Of a DNA stretch of 64,000 nucleotides, positions 55,915 to 60,314 are shown piece after piece. The stretch spans positions 62,001-126,000 of the forward strand of contig BAAIJX010000030.1 of assembly GCA_054600435.1 (NCBI GenBank). Direction: 5' to 3'. This DNA is from Neophaeotheca triangularis. Taxonomy: Eukaryota. Position numbers and translations under genes: made by a program. The notes beneath the pieces were generated by a model. It saw nothing but the letters and a program-made list of their open reading frames with translations. It did no database searches and was not told the origin of the DNA. How positions within the stretch are numbered: position 1 is the first letter of the stretch; each line of letters starts with the position of its first letter.

Positions 55915-57381
55915 ATGGACAGCAATGCTGCCCCGTCCGCTCCTACGGCGCAGGACGCTGTAGTGAAACATGATCTATCAGCAGCTCCCCCCAATCGGCA
56001 GGACATCGTCAACGAGCTTGCAAAAGTCGGCAAAAACGATGGTTCCATCTATCAGCAGCTGGCGAACAACCCCTTGTTCACCGCGGGCTTTGGTCTCGCT
56101 GGCTTGGGTGCAGCGGTGAGATTTGGCTCTCAGGGACTCAGGCGAGGTGCCGATCTCTTAAGGAAGCGCATGCTTGTAGATCTTGAAATCACAAGACATG
56201 ACGCCTCTTACCCCTGGGTCCTCAACTGGATGACTTCCCATTACCAAAACCAGCTAAACCCCGAGTCCGTACAAAGACCAACTGGGATGATGGAATCTCT
56301 GATACAACGCTTTATGCCCGGGCTACATCATCTCCAGATCAAGACCGACCGCGTCAAGACTCCGAGTGGCTCGGAACAGACTGCCTTTTCTCTCGTCCCC
56401 GGTCACGGCAAACACATCCTCCGCTACAAAAACGCCTTCATCGCCGTCAACCGTGAAAGGGTAGGCAAGAGCTTCGACGCCAACGGACAGCCTTTTGAAA
56501 CCGTAACCTTGACGACTTTGTATTACTACCGAGACGTTTTCGAGGACCTTTTTCGAGAAGCTCACGAAATGGCTTCCCGGAGCACAGAAGGCAAGACTGT
56601 AGTCTACACCAGCCAGATGATGAGCTGGCAGCCCTCCGGTCAACCTAAGAGAAGACGACCTTTCGATTCCGTCGTACTTGAGGAGGGCCTCTCCGAGAAG
56701 ATCCTAGGCGACGTACGAGAATTCCTAGACGCTCGAACCTGGTATCTAGACCGCGGCATTCCCTATCGCCGGGGCTACCTCCTATATGGCCCGCCCGGAA
56801 CTGGCAAGACGTCTTTCGTGCAAGCGCTCGCTGGCCGTCTCGACTTCAACATTGCCATGCTTAGTCTGAGCCAGCGAGGTCTAACCGACGACTTGTTGAA
56901 TCAGCTACTGCTGACTGTCCCACCTCGCACGATAGTGCTACTCGAAGACGCCGATGCGGCTTTCAGCAACCGGAGACAACGTGACGAAGACGGCTTCAGC
57001 GGTGCCACAGTCACTTTCTCCGGTCTCTTGAATGCACTCGACGGCGTGGCGAGTGCGGAAGAGCGGATAATCTTCATGACGACAAACCACATCGACCGCC
57101 TCGACGATGCCCTCATCCGGCCGGGAAGAGTCGATATGACTGTGAACCTGGGATACGCCACAGAATGGCAGATGGGTGAATTGTGGGATCGCTTCTATCC
57201 TACTGTTGGGGAGGGCGGCGATGGTGGCAAGGAGCGCTTCCTTCAGCGTGCTCGCGAGCTTGGCGTGGTGGATAACGTCAGCACGGCGGCATTGCAGGGG
57301 CTGTTTCTGTACAACAAGGATGATGCCGAGGGCGCCATTGCTATGGTCGATCAGTTGAAACCCGTAGCACCCAAGGGATAG
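55915..57381 (+). CDS. BCS1: Mitochondrial AAA chaperone for complex III Rieske protein insertion
   Basis: NPLFTAGFGLAGLG TM segment, [66 protein letters not shown]. Confidence 0.96.
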   Translation: MDSNAAPSAPTAQDAVVKHDLSAAPPNRQDIVNELAKVGKNDGSIYQQLANNPLFTAGFGLAGLGAAVRFGSQGLRRGADLLRKRMLVDLEITRHDASYPWVLNWMTSHYQNQLNPESVQRPTGMMESLIQRFMPGLHHLQIKTDRVKTPSGSEQTAFSLVPGHGKHILRYKNAFIAVNRERVGKSFDANGQPFETVTLTTLYYYRDVFEDLFREAHEMASRSTEGKTVVYTSQMMSWQPSGQPKRRRPFDSVVLEEGLSEKILGDVREFLDARTWYLDRGIPYRRGYLLYGPPGTGKTSFVQALAGRLDFNIAMLSLSQRGLTDDLLNQLLLTVPPRTIVLLEDADAAFSNRRQRDEDGFSGATVTFSGLLNALDGVASAEERIIFMTTNHIDRLDDALIRPGRVDMTVNLGYATEWQMGELWDRFYPTVGEGGDGGKERFLQRARELGVVDNVSTAALQGLFLYNKDDAEGAIAMVDQLKPVAPKG

Positions 57382-57621
57382 TGCACTTGCACCATAAAAC
57401 TAATGTAACAATATTTGACTTGTAAAGAGCTTTCCTTCACAGCACCTTCTCCGCAGAGACTTCTTAGATGACTTTTCCTTTAATAATATCTACCTTTTTT
57501 TATGCACAGAAACGTAGATTTTTGACGAAGCAACGGACAGACATGGAAATTGTGAGACATTCAAGCCTCCATTGGAAGAAAGAATAAACAAAGACCACTC
57601 CAAAGTAGCAAGAGTAAAAGG

Positions 57622-57636
57622 AAAAAACAACAAAAA
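57622..57636 (-). terminator. RNA polymerase III-type oligo(T) terminator downstream of tRNA-Tyr
   Basis: Minus-strand T5 (57636-57632) and T6 (57627-57622), beginning about 15 nt after the discriminator base. Confidence 0.7.
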
Positions 57637-57651
57637 GGAATGTAAGGAATG

Positions 57652-57874
57652 TCTCCCCTCCCGGCTACTATAGTGTTAGATATTGGTCGCCAATGACATC
57701 GATATTGGAGTGTCGCTTACGTTCGAACCAGGGACCTTGAGATAACGCCGTTCTAAAGGCTTTATCGGCTGAACAATTACAGTCTCACGCTCTTCCAACT
57801 GAGCCTAGTTTTCTTGTAAGAAAGTGCTCGAATTGCCGAGTGGGCTTGTTTGAGTCGCGACTTACTAAGGAGAG
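57652..57874 (-). tRNA. tRNA-Tyr(GUA) in four exons: two spliceosomal-type introns plus one canonical tRNA intron
   Basis: Exons 57874-57866 (nt 1-9), 57804-57777 (10-37), 57743-57721 (38-60), 57664-57652 (61-73). Joined: CTCTCCT TA GCTC AGTTGGAA GAGC G TGAGA CTGTAAA TCTCA AGGTC CCTGG TTCGAAC CCGGG AGGGGAG A. All four stems pair; C1-G72 and A73 are the eukaryotic Tyr identity elements. Confidence 0.88.
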
Positions 57875-57903
57875 TGGGTTCCCGACGCGGGTCAGGGATA
57901 TGG

Positions 57904-57910
57904 TTTTATA
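57904..57910 (-). promoter_or_regulatory. TATA box upstream of tRNA-Tyr
   Basis: TATAAAA on the minus strand, 30-36 nt upstream of the mature tRNA 5' end. Confidence 0.6.
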
Positions 57911-60110
57911 TTGGCTTGAACAATAGTGCCGAGGTTGTGACGAAAAGTGGGTCGCTACCGAGCATGGGTGTTTTGGTTGTTGTTTGTCTAAACCGAGAAT
58001 TGAATGGAGCTTTGGCTACTGTTGCTTGGAAGCATATCGCTGTTGAGACTACTGTAGACGTTCCCTCACATCCCTCTTTAACGTTGCTGCCCCATATCCT
58101 CACCCATCTCGCCACGCTCCATCAATGCATCTGGGCGACGACGCAACGCTTGCCATCTCTCTGCTGCAAACACTTTAGCAAGTGCATCGTGGCAAGTCAG
58201 AGACGAAAACAATGTTATACGCTTCTCGGTGAGGCTGTGGTGCGCGGGCTCGCTGCAGTGCGGCGTCTTGCAAGCGGAAATGTCGTATGGGATATACCTA
58301 TCTACGGTCAATTACGTCCATACCCCTCTCTACAAAGTTCGCCGGGAGCGTGTACCAAGTTCGTAATCCGTCAATTGTCTCTTGGTCCCGGCGAGACGAT
58401 GTCCATCAGTGGCGAAGAGATGGCTTTGATGCTCGGAGCGTTCGACTGCGCAATCGTGGGCTGCAACGAGCGGATCATGCCCATGTTTCAAGCTGCTGCG
58501 GCCGGAAAGAGTGGTAGTGGTCTTAAGACAGCGGCCGTCGAGGTCGAGAACGCTGTAGCCGGCTTGGATGTAGCTTGCCGCCTTAGTGGTTGAAACCTTG
58601 GCTTCGCCACCGTGGAGGGCTACGATTACTTCCTCGCTGATGTTGTTCACGGAGACTCTGTGGGTTTTTGACATTTTTGAAATCTCCATCTGTGTTACCG
58701 CAAGCTCTATAGCCTTGTGGTTTGTATTGATGTTGCTCAAGGTCTCCCAGCTGGAGGCTTGAAATAGTTGTTGTCTTCGCTGGGCGGTGGTGAAGTCGCA
58801 TCCTGTAGTGTTTTAAAGGCGTCGTAGAGAACCTACGCATGGCCCGGCGTTCTGAGTCCATGACGTGAATGCGATAGATTTGGCAAGGACAAGTGAATAT
58901 AAAACACTTAGGTCGATGGCAAATCGCTGGGAAGGTTTTGGCAATACAAAAAGACGATGGAAGAAAGAGAAGAAATCCACAGCAAGGGAAGTGGAAAGAT
59001 ATAGACTGTGCATGAGATTGAATACGCAAAGGACCGGACGTGCTGTAAACCAGATCTCAGATATTTATCTACCGTTTTGGCCTCCCTTTGAGCTCTATTT
59101 CATCGTGCATCTATACCTTCAATGCTTTACGGCCGAAGTTTCAGATGTCAAAAAGTCATCGTTGTGCTTCTAGTACCTACAAGTATTGATCTGCCAGCAG
59201 CAGACCGTTCGTTCGGTGTCCGAAGCCATTCGAGTTCCTCGAAGGGAACTGTGTCTCCCGCAGCATTAGAGGCCAGCGCCACAATATGTCGCAGAGCGTT
59301 TGTTGAACATCGTCGTAGAGATGAATAGGCCCTTGTTCGCAGAATAGGGGACACGGAGCCAGACTCGATAGTGTGGCGAAGTCTACAACTACTTTCCAGC
59401 TATGTAGCCCGATTGTGATTTTCCCCCAAAGTCATGATGAATCGAGCCTGGAGGCTATCAATCGAGCTTCTTGTTTATCGATTCATAAAATTCTATCCTG
59501 GAGTGGGAAGTAGCTCAACTCTCGGATGCGCGTTGGAGCTATGTCATGCCATGCTGATAGGAGTCATGGTGCTGTTTTTGGTGTAGGAGAAGGGTTGTTG
59601 CTTGTTGCGTGTGCCCTCTGAGATAGTCACGTGACGCCCAACGCGCTATCGGTATCTTGACCAGCAGACAGTGCAATCAGCCTGATATGAGCACTCCACC
59701 CACGTAGCGCGACTGCAGAGGTACGCCGGCATGAGAGTGAATTGGAAGCGACGAGGTGTCGTTGAAACCTCCAGGCTCCGGCATCCCACACCCCTGATAC
59801 GGGCGGAATGCACAGACCACATCCAGTGACGTCGAGCCTGCCCCACCAAAAACGACAGCAGGGTGCGGCCCAGGTGGGCTTCCATGACATTGTCCCTCCA
59901 TCACCGATTTGCAAACTCGACTACAAAACCAATCGAAACAGCGACAATACCAACAACTCACCCACCCACTACACACCGACCTCCAAAAGTAAGTGCAATT
60001 CACCGAATCCATCATCGAACCCCAGCTCCCTAACACCCAACACCCAGCCAACCAACAAGCCCCAAAACAAACCAAACCCAACCCCACCCCCCAAAACAAC
60101 CACCACCAAA

Positions 60111-60314
60111 ATGTCCGCTCCCCAGCAAGGCCGCCAGTCCCCCGAGCCCGAGCGCCAGACCGGCGCCCAGCAGCAGGCCCCTCCCGCGAAGCCCAACGAC
60201 CAGGGCGCCGGCCCCGGCGAGAAGGCCGCCGACGCCAGCCAGAACCAGCTGAACAACTTGGCCAGCAACCCCAAGGGCCCGCTCGACGACGCCGCGCACG
60301 AGAAGACGAAGTAA
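60111..60314 (+). CDS. Small hydrophilic protein (67 aa) resembling a conserved fungal family; 5'-UTR intron at 59989-60047
   Basis: MSAPQQGRQSPEPERQTGAQ...LASNPKGPLDDAAHEKTK; very strong C/G-ending codon bias; CAAAATG start context; upstream GTAAGT...CTAAC...CAG. Confidence 0.8.
   Translation: MSAPQQGRQSPEPERQTGAQQQAPPAKPNDQGAGPGEKAADASQNQLNNLASNPKGPLDDAAHEKTK

What the first reader, a model, noticed from the sequence alone, without database searches (positions are those of the whole stretch)
57652..57874. tRNA-Tyr gene apparently interrupted by two spliceosomal (GT-AG) introns in addition to its canonical tRNA intron
Seen in the sequence: a tRNA-Tyr core on the minus strand lacks both adjacent acceptor strands and the 3' T-stem strand. 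The missing parts lie beyond two inserts. Insert A (57865-57805, 61 nt) is GTAAGT...TTCTTAC-AAGAAAAC-TAG, between nt 9 and 10. Insert B (57720-57665, 56 nt) is GTAAGC...TCTAAC-ACTATAG-TAG, between nt 60 and 61. Cutting exactly at GT/AG, and removing the 33-nt canonical intron at 37/38 (57776-57744), gives a 73-nt cloverleaf with no slack. It has a 7-bp acceptor stem, U8-A9, a GCTC/GAGC D stem, a GUA anticodon, a CCTGG/CCGGG T stem, C1-G72 and A73. Both inserts match this window's mRNA introns in length, donor sequence and branch-to-AG spacing. Established knowledge: tRNA introns are removed by the TSEN endonuclease plus ligase; spliceosomal introns are known in fungal U6 snRNA (a Pol III transcript) and in some ascomycete rDNAs. 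I am not aware of a report in a tRNA. Inference: this tRNA needs both the spliceosome and TSEN to mature, and standard tRNA scanners would miss it or call it a pseudogene.
Basis: partly seen in the sequence, partly recalled or inferred. Interest (0 to 1): 0.96.

Follow-up and report, generated by a model that had tools for sequence, protein, structure and literature searches.

The report
tRNA-Tyr gene with two spliceosomal-type introns
A fungal tyrosine-tRNA gene is cut into four pieces by the usual small tRNA intron plus two inserts that look exactly like ordinary messenger-RNA introns, an arrangement I could not find described for any tRNA, although whether the gene still makes a working tRNA could not be tested here.

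Summary
On the minus strand, four pieces (57874-57866, 57804-57777, 57743-57721, 57664-57652) join into a 73-nt tRNA-Tyr(GUA) that ARAGORN accepts, with or without the 33-nt canonical 37/38 intron. The genomic locus is invisible to ARAGORN and Rfam.

The two extra inserts (61 and 56 nt, at tRNA positions 9/10 and 60/61) start GTAAGT/GTAAGC and end TAG. Each has CTTAC/CTAAC 11-12 nt before its end. The chance of these borders at both fixed sites is about 1e-11. The composite intron motif occurs only 8 times in the window, and two of those are these inserts. They have no bulge-helix-bulge and no copies in the window.

The host is a Mycosphaerellales-like Dothideomycete, a clade known for recent intron gain.

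No RNA data, whole genome or orthologous locus could be reached. Function is therefore open: I put a live, spliceosome-dependent tRNA gene at about 0.45 and a recently disabled copy at about 0.40. Among 124 metagenomic tRNA-Tyr matches, 120 are contiguous genes and none is split this way. Nine literature searches found no report of a spliceosomal intron in a tRNA gene.

The parts
57904..57910 (-). TATAAAA box, -36 to -30 relative to tRNA position 1
   Evidence: Read. TATAAAA occurs only 5 times on both strands of the window, and TATAWA falls in a given 15-nt span with P about 0.003. Its role as a promoter element is inferred.
57866..57874 (-). Exon 1: tRNA positions 1-9 (5' acceptor strand, U8, A9)
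57805..57865 (-). Insert A, 61 nt, spliceosomal-type intron at tRNA 9/10: GTAAGT donor, CTTAC 12 nt before the end, TAG acceptor
   Evidence: No bulge-helix-bulge. No other copy in the window.
57777..57804 (-). Exon 2: tRNA positions 10-37 (D arm, 5' anticodon stem, anticodon GTA, A37); holds most of the A box
   Evidence: An identical exon 2 occurs in a contiguous metagenomic tRNA-Tyr gene, L010.
57744..57776 (-). Canonical tRNA intron, 33 nt, at 37/38 (TSEN type)
   Evidence: ARAGORN i(38,33). C32 can pair with the G three nt before the 3' cut.
57721..57743 (-). Exon 3: tRNA positions 38-60 (3' anticodon stem, variable loop, 5' T stem, T loop); holds 9 of 11 B-box positions
57665..57720 (-). 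Insert B, 56 nt, spliceosomal-type intron at tRNA 60/61: GTAAGC donor, CTAAC 11 nt before the end, tandem TAGTAG acceptor
   Evidence: No bulge-helix-bulge. No other copy in the window.
57652..57664 (-). Exon 4: tRNA positions 61-73 (3' T stem, 3' acceptor strand, discriminator A73)
   Evidence: the only 13-mer of 208 that pairs 5/5 with the T stem.
57622..57636 (-). T5 (57636-57632) and T6 (57627-57622) runs, Pol III terminator-like, starting 16 nt after A73
   Evidence: A T5+ run within 30 nt downstream occurs at 1.9% of 25,496 sampled positions.

Best explanation
This is a nuclear tRNA-Tyr(GUA) gene of a Mycosphaerellales-like Dothideomycete fungus. Besides the universal tRNA-Tyr intron at 37/38, it has acquired two ordinary spliceosomal (U2-type GT-AG) introns, one between positions 9 and 10 and one between 60 and 61. 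My committed reading is that the gene is still alive. Inferred steps: (1) Transcription starts a few nt upstream of exon 1, directed by the TATAAAA at -36/-30. Pol III is most likely, as in fission-yeast U6, with TFIIIC still able to bind the largely intact A and B boxes. Transcription ends at the T5/T6 runs 16 nt past A73. Neither insert contains a T4 run. (2) The nuclear spliceosome removes inserts A and B. Only then do the acceptor stem, D arm and T arm exist. (3) RNase P and RNase Z, which need that mature domain, trim the ends. The fungal four-subunit TSEN measures from the mature domain and cuts only at 37/38; it removes the 33-nt intron, then ligation and CCA addition follow. Shown here: the anatomy, the splice signals and their non-randomness, the intact tRNA features, and the lack of a BHB. 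Inferred: transcription, polymerase, splicing and function.
For: The perfect 73-nt cloverleaf with C1-G72, A73, U8, A14, G18G19, U33, the GTTCGA T loop, G15/C48 and the GTA anticodon appears only after cutting exactly at GT/AG. The thermodynamic MFE of the joined exons also gives acceptor, D and anticodon stems. The solution is unique and the border probability is about 1e-11. The composite motif GTAAGY...CT[AGT]AC...YAG occurs 8 times in 128,000 strand positions; 2 are these inserts, and at least 3 of the other 6 are ORF-joining mRNA introns. The insert lengths (61, 56) lie within the local range: 10 of 13 hand-picked ORF-joining introns are 46-62 nt, and donors GTAAGT and GTAAGC are both used. 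The TATA box and the T5 terminator are both rare features (0.3% and 1.9% by chance) and sit correctly relative to exon 1 and exon 4. The canonical intron keeps the C32/G(-3) pairing potential. Two separate introns of unrelated sequence, of ordinary length and unremarkable fold stability (z -0.8, +0.6), look like settled introns, not fresh repeat copies. That fits long tolerance of the first insertion. Precedent: fungal U6 genes (Pol III) carry up to four spliceosomal introns, often species-specific, and the S. pombe one is spliced (PMC5855946, section 14 read). The fungal TSEN can only remove 37/38 introns (PMC10485636, passages in section 6).
Against: There is no RNA evidence of any kind and no orthologous or paralogous locus, so conservation is untested. 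The A box starts 61 bp further from the presumed start than in a normal tRNA gene, so TFIIIC-directed initiation would fall inside insert A and lose exon 1. The last two B-box positions are replaced by the GT of insert B. Insert B ends TAGTAG: the first AG lies 8 nt after the branch A, a distance the local introns appear to use (one predicted intron has 6 nt), and its use would give a tRNA with 3 extra nt. The CTTAC branch of insert A is non-consensus. tRNA-Tyr is normally multi-copy, so one copy can die without cost. The clade is known for bursts of intron gain, so the insertions may be too young for decay to show. None of 124 metagenomic tRNA-Tyr matches with the same D-arm and anticodon-arm pattern is split, and exhaustive scans for the AG-prefixed form found 0. 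The absence of T4 runs is uninformative: 56% of random 223-nt windows lack them, and 12 of 13 local introns have T runs of 3 or fewer.
Confidence: 0.45

Rival explanations
1. Recently disabled tRNA-Tyr copy. The same anatomy holds (a true tRNA-Tyr gene hit by two spliceosomal-type intron insertions), but the gene no longer yields a tRNA. It is not transcribed from upstream of exon 1, or is not spliced, or is mis-spliced, and it simply has not had time to decay.
For: The A box is displaced by 61 bp and the B box is truncated at its last two positions. Insert B has the TAGTAG ambiguity and insert A a non-consensus CTTAC branch. The host belongs to the Dothideomycete lineage in which multiplying introner-like elements were described (van der Burgt 2012, seen only as cited in PMC5647799 and PMC11146597). 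tRNA-Tyr is multi-copy in fungi (recalled). 0 of 124 examined relatives share the split. No tRNA precedent was found in nine literature searches.
Against: Two independent insertions into one 73-bp dead target are very unlikely unless the first was tolerated for a long time. Every one of the 73 exon positions, the canonical intron pairing, the TATA box and the terminator is intact. The inserts are neither similar to each other nor repeated in the window, and they lack the strong structure reported for young introner-like elements.
Confidence: 0.4
2. Live gene, but read by Pol II. The tRNA is embedded in a TATA-driven (or read-through) Pol II transcript. Its introns are removed co-transcriptionally like any mRNA intron, and RNase P/Z then release the tRNA. 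This is a variant of the best explanation that differs only in the polymerase; its probability is part of the 0.45 given there.
For: The TATAAAA lies 30-36 nt upstream. Spliceosomal splicing is normally coupled to Pol II. The displaced A box matters less in this case. A weakly coding-like minus-strand ORF ends 456 nt upstream.
Against: The T5/T6 terminator sits exactly where a Pol III gene needs it. The A and B boxes are largely retained. The upstream ORF has no Pfam or Atlas support. Fission-yeast U6 shows that Pol III transcripts can be spliced (PMC5855946, section 14).
Confidence: 0.12
3. Inserts A and B are non-canonical tRNA introns removed by the tRNA splicing endonuclease through bulge-helix-bulge motifs, as in red algae, nucleomorphs and archaea.
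For: Non-canonical D-arm and T-arm tRNA introns exist in Cyanidioschyzon merolae and nucleomorphs (PMC4090602, passages).
Against: At most 2 of 4 central-helix pairs can form at either insert under any of 9 offsets tried. The fungal four-subunit TSEN removes only 37/38 introns (PMC10485636, section 6 passages). A TSEN substrate does not need the GTAAGY/branch/YAG signals, which have a chance probability of about 1e-11.
Confidence: 0.02
4. Chance resemblance or assembly artefact: unrelated fragments that happen to complete a tRNA core.
For: Only one locus was seen, with no independent sequence.
Against: The solution is unique and the border statistics are extreme. The window has no N. The TATA box and terminator sit in the right places.
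Confidence: 0.02

Closest known systems
mRNA-type (spliceosomal) introns in fungal U6 snRNA genes (S. pombe; many other fungi, up to four per gene)
   Same: A small, highly structured RNA gene with Pol III hallmarks (upstream TATA, T-run terminator) is interrupted by introns. These carry canonical 5' splice site, branch and 3' splice site signals but are otherwise unconserved, and they are often species-specific. The S. pombe intron is removed by the spliceosome (PMC5855946, section 14 read in full).
   Different: The host RNA is a tRNA, which is not part of the spliceosome, so the 'reverse splicing at the active site' origin argued for U6 does not obviously apply. This locus also keeps a TSEN-type intron, so two splicing systems would have to act on one RNA. 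The internal A and B box promoter is itself split by the inserts.
Spliceosomal introns in rDNA of ascomycetes, and in U1, U2, U5 snRNA and U3 snoRNA genes of fungi
   Same: These are spliceosomal introns in non-coding, non-mRNA genes of fungi. Two papers list the RNA classes known to carry them, and tRNA is not on either list (PMC5855946 section 14; PMC5832005 introduction and section 3.2 passages, which also report U3 introns in Dothideomycetes).
   Different: Different polymerases (Pol I, Pol II) and RNA classes. None is a tRNA, and none combines with a protein-only splicing step.
Non-canonical-position tRNA introns of Cyanidioschyzon merolae, cryptophyte and chlorarachniophyte nucleomorphs, and Crenarchaeota
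   Same: Several introns in one tRNA gene, including D-arm and T-arm positions. The genes are invisible to standard scanners (PMC4090602 passages; PMC10485636 section 6 passages).
   Different: Those introns are short or BHB-bounded and are cut by the tRNA endonuclease. Here there is no BHB, there are full GT-AG/branch signals, and the host is a fungus whose TSEN is restricted to 37/38.
Introner-like elements and recent intron gain in Dothideomycetes (Zymoseptoria, Cladosporium/Fulvia, Dothistroma)
   Same: Same fungal lineage by BCS1 similarity. These are short, non-coding introns that insert at new sites, and they give a plausible source of inserts A and B (van der Burgt 2012 and Collemare 2015, seen only as citations in PMC5647799 and PMC11146597).
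   Different: Those were described in protein-coding genes. A and B have no copy in the 64-kb window, do not resemble each other, are of ordinary length and are not unusually structured. Genome-wide copy number could not be tested.

Membership tests
Eukaryotic cytosolic tRNA-Tyr(GUA) | Cloverleaf with 7-bp acceptor, D, anticodon and T arms, and GTA anticodon | tested here: met
   ARAGORN on the script-joined exons gives tRNA-Tyr(gta), 73 nt. The MFE fold gives acceptor, D and anticodon stems.
Eukaryotic cytosolic tRNA-Tyr(GUA) | Identity and invariant nucleotides: C1-G72, A73, U8, A14, G18G19, U33, G53-T54-T55-C56, A58, C61, G15/C48 | tested here: met
   Read directly from the ARAGORN drawing and sequence. 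The list of identity elements is recalled knowledge.
Eukaryotic cytosolic tRNA-Tyr(GUA) | Canonical intron at 37/38 | tested here: met
   ARAGORN i(38,33). Most of the metagenomic tRNA-Tyr genes listed also carry an intron at this place (not counted).
Eukaryotic cytosolic tRNA-Tyr(GUA) | Contiguous gene apart from the 37/38 intron; recognised by tRNA scanners | tested here: not met
   ARAGORN finds 0 genes in the window with or without intron mode. Rfam finds 0 at gathering threshold and 0 at E<=10 on 57550-57980. 120 of 124 metagenomic relatives are contiguous.
Eukaryotic cytosolic tRNA-Tyr(GUA) | Expressed, processed and aminoacylated | not testable with these tools
   No RNA run was listed.
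U2-type GT-AG spliceosomal introns | 5' splice site GTRAGY at the exact border | tested here: met
   GTAAGT (A) and GTAAGC (B). Both hexamers also start ORF-joining introns in the window.
U2-type GT-AG spliceosomal introns | Branch motif CTRAY shortly upstream of the 3' end | tested here: inconclusive
   B has the consensus CTAAC, with the branch A 11 nt from the end. A has only CTTAC, 12 nt from the end.
U2-type GT-AG spliceosomal introns | 3' splice site YAG at the exact border, unambiguous | tested here: inconclusive
   Both inserts end in TAG. B ends TAGTAG, so the proximal AG competes and only the distal one restores the tRNA.
U2-type GT-AG spliceosomal introns | Length within the organism's intron distribution | tested here: met
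   61 and 56 nt. 10 of 13 hand-picked ORF-joining introns are 46-62 nt, and the 6 other composite-motif hits are 52-68 nt. The mRNA introns are predictions, not verified by RNA.
U2-type GT-AG spliceosomal introns | Removal as a lariat by the spliceosome | not testable with these tools
   No RNA data.
TSEN/BHB non-canonical tRNA introns | Bulge-helix-bulge: two 3-nt bulges holding the cut sites, separated by a 4-bp helix | tested here: not met
   The best of 9 offset combinations gives 2 of 4 central pairs for A and for B.
Introner-like elements | Multiple near-identical copies in unrelated genes of the same genome | tested here: inconclusive
   No match longer than 13 nt elsewhere in the 64-kb window, and A and B are unlike each other. 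The rest of the genome is not held.
Introner-like elements | Longer than regular introns, with unusually stable predicted structure (feature recalled from the literature) | tested here: not met
   Ordinary lengths. Fold z-scores are -0.8 (A) and +0.6 (B) against 300 mononucleotide shuffles.
Pol III genes carrying spliceosomal introns (U6 type) | Upstream TATA near -30, T-run terminator, no internal T4+ run | tested here: met
   TATAAAA at -36/-30; T5 16 nt after A73; longest internal T run is 3. The last point is weak, because 56% of random windows pass it.
Pol III genes carrying spliceosomal introns (U6 type) | Transcribed by Pol III and spliced in vivo | not testable with these tools
   No RNA or occupancy data.

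The most novel reading that the evidence does not exclude
This is a working tRNA-Tyr gene whose precursor must pass through the spliceosome twice before RNase P, RNase Z and the tRNA endonuclease can even recognise it. That would make it the first tRNA known to depend on the spliceosome, and probably a second class of Pol III transcript (after U6) that is spliced like an mRNA. It would also imply that intron-gaining fungi such as the Mycosphaerellales may hide further tRNA genes that every standard scanner misses.
Probability: 0.4. Interest if true: 0.93.

Novelty: new variant of a known kind. Interest (0 to 1): 0.8.

Why it matters
Textbook and review accounts keep tRNA introns (protein-only TSEN and ligase) and spliceosomal introns strictly apart. 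The reviews I read list U6, U1, U2, U5, U3 and rRNA as the non-coding RNAs that carry spliceosomal introns, and tRNA is not among them. A tRNA gene with two such introns would matter in four ways. First, it would show that the spliceosome can serve tRNA biogenesis. Second, it would give a natural test of how Pol III promoter boxes tolerate being split and moved. Third, it would bear on how new introns are seeded (reverse splicing into abundant structured RNAs versus DNA-level insertion), in a lineage with ongoing intron gain. Fourth, it would expose a blind spot of tRNAscan-, ARAGORN- and Infernal-based annotation. Even if the copy is dead, it is a rare, cleanly dated snapshot of intron insertion into a non-mRNA gene.

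Tried and rejected
- **RNA evidence.** The look-up of sequencing runs (kind rna, window 56800-58300) listed no RNA holder.
- **Whole genome.** None is held. Other tRNA-Tyr copies, other split tRNAs and genome-wide copies of inserts A and B could not be sought.
- **Orthologous locus.** BCS1 relatives at 99% and 94% identity exist only as unnamed proteins from assembled runs (P0001, P0002). The tool that would fetch their contigs is closed and was not called.
- **Metagenome scan 1.** Exon-2 pattern preceded by AG: 0 hits.
- **Metagenome scan 2.** Exon-2 pattern alone: 122 loci with 124 matches. 120 are contiguous tRNAs, 3 are cut by contig ends and 1 is a lone 5' half. My first, too strict count (65 of 124) came from ARAGORN's variable start and anticodon assignment and was replaced.
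- **Genome-contig scan** of the AG-prefixed pattern: 0 hits. This collection holds prokaryotes, so it was a long shot.
- **Earlier findings of this scan.** Nothing on this genome, this sequence or this idea.
- **TSEN/BHB reading.** Rejected.
- **Introner family reading.** Not supported within the window.
- **Host gene.** ORFs between 57820 and 59431 have no Pfam family. The one ORF with a mildly coding-like score (58333-58689, minus strand) has no usable Atlas hit.
- **TATA as a general feature.** TATAWA lies at -45 to -22 in 20 of 120 evaluable metagenomic upstream regions, which come from very mixed organisms. This was not informative.
- **Absence of T4 runs in the inserts.** Not informative.
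- **Papers.** Canzler et al. 2016 on U6 introns is not held. I know it only through PMC5855946 and PMC5832005.

Full report
**1. What is in the sequence**

The layout is:

| Piece | Coordinates | Length |
|---|---|---|
| Exon 1 | 57874-57866 | 9 nt |
| Insert A | 57865-57805 | 61 nt |
| Exon 2 | 57804-57777 | 28 nt |
| Canonical intron | 57776-57744 | 33 nt |
| Exon 3 | 57743-57721 | 23 nt |
| Insert B | 57720-57665 | 56 nt |
| Exon 4 | 57664-57652 | 13 nt |

- ARAGORN calls the script-joined exons a 73-nt tRNA-Tyr(gta).
- With the 33-nt piece kept, it calls Tyr(gta) with an intron at 37/38.
- On the unedited genomic stretch it finds nothing.
- On the whole window, ARAGORN with or without intron mode finds 0 genes.
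- Rfam finds 0 matches at gathering threshold and 0 even at E<=10 on the locus alone.

**2. Is it more than chance?**

I let only tRNA pairing rules choose the outer pieces.
- Of 208 candidate 13-mers in the 221 nt downstream of exon 3, exactly one pairs 5/5 with the T stem. It begins right after the TAG of insert B.
- Combined with it, 2 of 198 upstream 9-mers give 7/7 acceptor pairs. The other is a pyrimidine run inside insert A that lacks U8 and has three G-U pairs.

The splice signals were not used in this choice, yet the chosen borders are GTAAGT/TAG and GTAAGC/TAG.
- In this window GTAAG[TC] occupies 3.6e-4 of strand positions and TAG 9.7e-3. All four borders by chance is about 1.2e-11.
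- A CT[AGT]AC motif 6-22 nt upstream of an arbitrary point occurs at only 2.5% of sites.
- The composite motif (GTAAGY, 30-70 nt, CT[AGT]AC, 5-12 nt, YAG) occurs 8 times on both strands of the window. Two of these are inserts A and B. The other six are 52-68 nt long, and at least three coincide with introns that join long open reading frames.

**3. Do the inserts look like this organism's introns?**

A simple ORF-joining search gave 40 candidate rows. From these I hand-picked 13: the shortest alternative per donor. I dropped rows longer than 100 nt and the two spurious rows that overlap the tRNA locus. These are predictions, not RNA-verified introns.
- 10 of the 13 are 46-62 nt long.
- Their donors include GTAAGT and GTAAGC.
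- Their branch motifs are mostly CTAAC or CTGAC, 6-15 nt before the acceptor.

Insert B (56 nt, CTAAC, branch A 11 nt from the end) fits fully. Insert A (61 nt) fits in length and donor, but its best branch candidate is the non-consensus CTTAC.

The first AG lies 8 nt after the branch A, a spacing that local introns appear able to use. Using it would leave three extra nucleotides in the T loop. Only the distal AG restores the tRNA.

**4. What the inserts are not**

- *Not endonuclease-type introns.* At neither insert can the 4-bp central helix of a bulge-helix-bulge form (best 2 of 4 pairs over 9 offsets). The four-subunit TSEN of fungi recognises the whole tRNA body and removes only 37/38 introns (PMC10485636, passages in section 6).
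- *Not recognisable repeats.* Neither insert has a match longer than 13 nt elsewhere in the 64 kb, and the two do not resemble each other. Their predicted structures are unremarkable (z -0.8 and +0.6).
- *Not part of a detectable protein gene.* ORFs between 57820 and 59431 have no Pfam family and mostly negative coding scores. The single mildly coding-like ORF (58333-58689, minus strand) has no usable Atlas hit.

**5. Gene surroundings**

- TATAAAA lies at 57910-57904, that is -36 to -30 from tRNA position 1. This heptamer occurs only 5 times in the window.
- T5 and T6 runs start 16 nt after A73. Such a run within 30 nt is found at 1.9% of sampled positions.
- The gene body has no run of four T. 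This is uninformative, because 56% of random 223-nt windows also lack one and 12 of 13 local introns have T runs of 3 or fewer.
- In the DNA the A box survives from position 10 on, with the last G of the intron standing where R9 would be. It now lies 61 bp further from the presumed start.
- The B box keeps 9 of its 11 positions before the GT of insert B.
- The canonical intron keeps a G three nucleotides before its 3' end that can pair with C32. I recall this as the anticodon-intron pair needed by eukaryotic TSEN.

**6. Host**

The neighbouring convergent gene is BCS1 (55918-57378, plus strand). Its best named relatives, at 75-79% identity, are from Lecanosticta, Salinomyces, Meristemomyces, Saxophila, Zasmidium and Hortaea. 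Zymoseptoria, Fulvia and Dothistroma follow further down. The window therefore comes from a Mycosphaerellales-like Dothideomycete. This is the lineage in which multiplying introner-like elements and recent intron gains were described (seen by me only as citations in PMC5647799 and PMC11146597).

**7. Relatives of the gene**

- No genome is held and no RNA run was listed.
- An exhaustive metagenome scan for exon 2 preceded by AG found nothing, as did the same scan of prokaryote genomes.
- Of those 124 matches, 120 are contiguous tRNA genes, 3 are cut by contig ends and 1 is a lone 5' half. All 123 evaluable matches have TA directly before position 10.
- One locus (L010) has an exon 2 identical to ours in a normal, contiguous gene.

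The split architecture is therefore derived and, as far as I could see, unique. I have no test of its conservation.

**8. Literature**

Nine searches found no report of a spliceosomal intron in a tRNA gene.
- The U6 review (PMC5855946, section 14 read in full) lists U6, U2, U5, U1 and rRNA genes as carriers. It notes up to four introns per fungal U6 gene, many of them species-specific, and states that only some have been shown to be spliced.
- The tRNA-intron review PMC4090602 contains no word beginning 'spliceosom'.
- The library lacks most subscription journals, so absence in print is not proven.

**9. Reading**

I take two things as established at about 0.9: this is a true tRNA-Tyr gene, and two spliceosomal-type introns have been inserted into it. 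Whether it is alive is open.

*For a live gene:*
- All 73 exon positions, the canonical intron, the TATA box and the terminator are intact.
- Two unrelated, ordinary-looking introns imply that the first insertion was tolerated long enough for a second.
- Fungal U6 provides a Pol III precedent.

*For a dead copy:*
- The A box is displaced.
- Insert B ends TAGTAG, and the branch of insert A is weak.
- tRNA-Tyr genes are redundant.
- The clade has high intron-gain activity.
- There is no conservation or RNA evidence at all.

I put the live, spliceosome-dependent reading at 0.45. Pol III is favoured within it, and a Pol II variant accounts for about 0.12 of that. I put the recently disabled copy at 0.40, and TSEN substrates or artefact at about 0.02 each.

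In the live reading the order of events is forced. The spliceosome must act first, because RNase P, RNase Z and TSEN all need the acceptor, D and T body that only exists after inserts A and B are removed.

**10. Verdict**

It is a new variant of a known kind: spliceosomal introns in small non-coding RNA genes. Function rests on one locus and on inference. RT-PCR or tRNA-seq across the two junctions, a genome-wide tRNA census and the orthologous locus next to BCS1 would settle it.

Noticed in passing
window 57665-57670 (minus strand, 3' end of insert B): Tandem acceptor TAGTAG. The proximal AG is 8 nt from the CTAAC branch adenosine and the distal one 11 nt. Only the distal one restores the tRNA, so a 3-nt-longer mis-spliced product is predicted to compete.
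   Followed up: partly
window 57824-57816 (minus strand, inside insert A): A pyrimidine 9-mer overlapping the CTTAC motif also pairs 7/7 (three G-U) with the 3' acceptor strand. It could compete with exon 1 for pairing in the precursor, or it could be chance.
   Followed up: no
window 58333-58689 (minus strand): A 119-codon ATG-started ORF with a mildly positive codon score (0.107 per codon, GC3 0.60) ends 456 nt upstream of the tRNA. It has no Pfam family and no usable Atlas hit. It may be a small orphan gene or noise.
   Followed up: partly
window 59766-60314 (plus strand), with a predicted intron at 59989-60047: A proline/glutamine-rich, low-complexity ORF has the highest coding score of the neighbourhood (0.265) and a composite-motif intron. 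It has no Pfam family.
   Followed up: no
window 55918-57378 (plus strand): An intron-less BCS1 (mitochondrial AAA chaperone) gene lies convergent to the tRNA, with its stop 270 nt from the tRNA 3' end. Unnamed relatives at 99% and 94% identity exist in assembled public runs (P0001, P0002), so sister genomes are available in principle.
   Followed up: partly
L069 and L114 (metagenome loci): tRNA genes matching the exon-2 pattern carry 215- and 234-nt inserts in the anticodon loop (ARAGORN i(36,215) and i(36,234)). By size and position they are probably group I introns in bacterial-type tRNA-Tyr genes.
   Followed up: no
L115 (metagenome locus), matches at 300 and 810: One contig holds a tRNA-Tyr 5' half that runs into unrelated sequence after A37, and 510 nt downstream a second copy with a degenerate T arm. 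This is an example of what decaying tRNA-Tyr copies look like, in contrast with the intact exons of the window locus.
   Followed up: no
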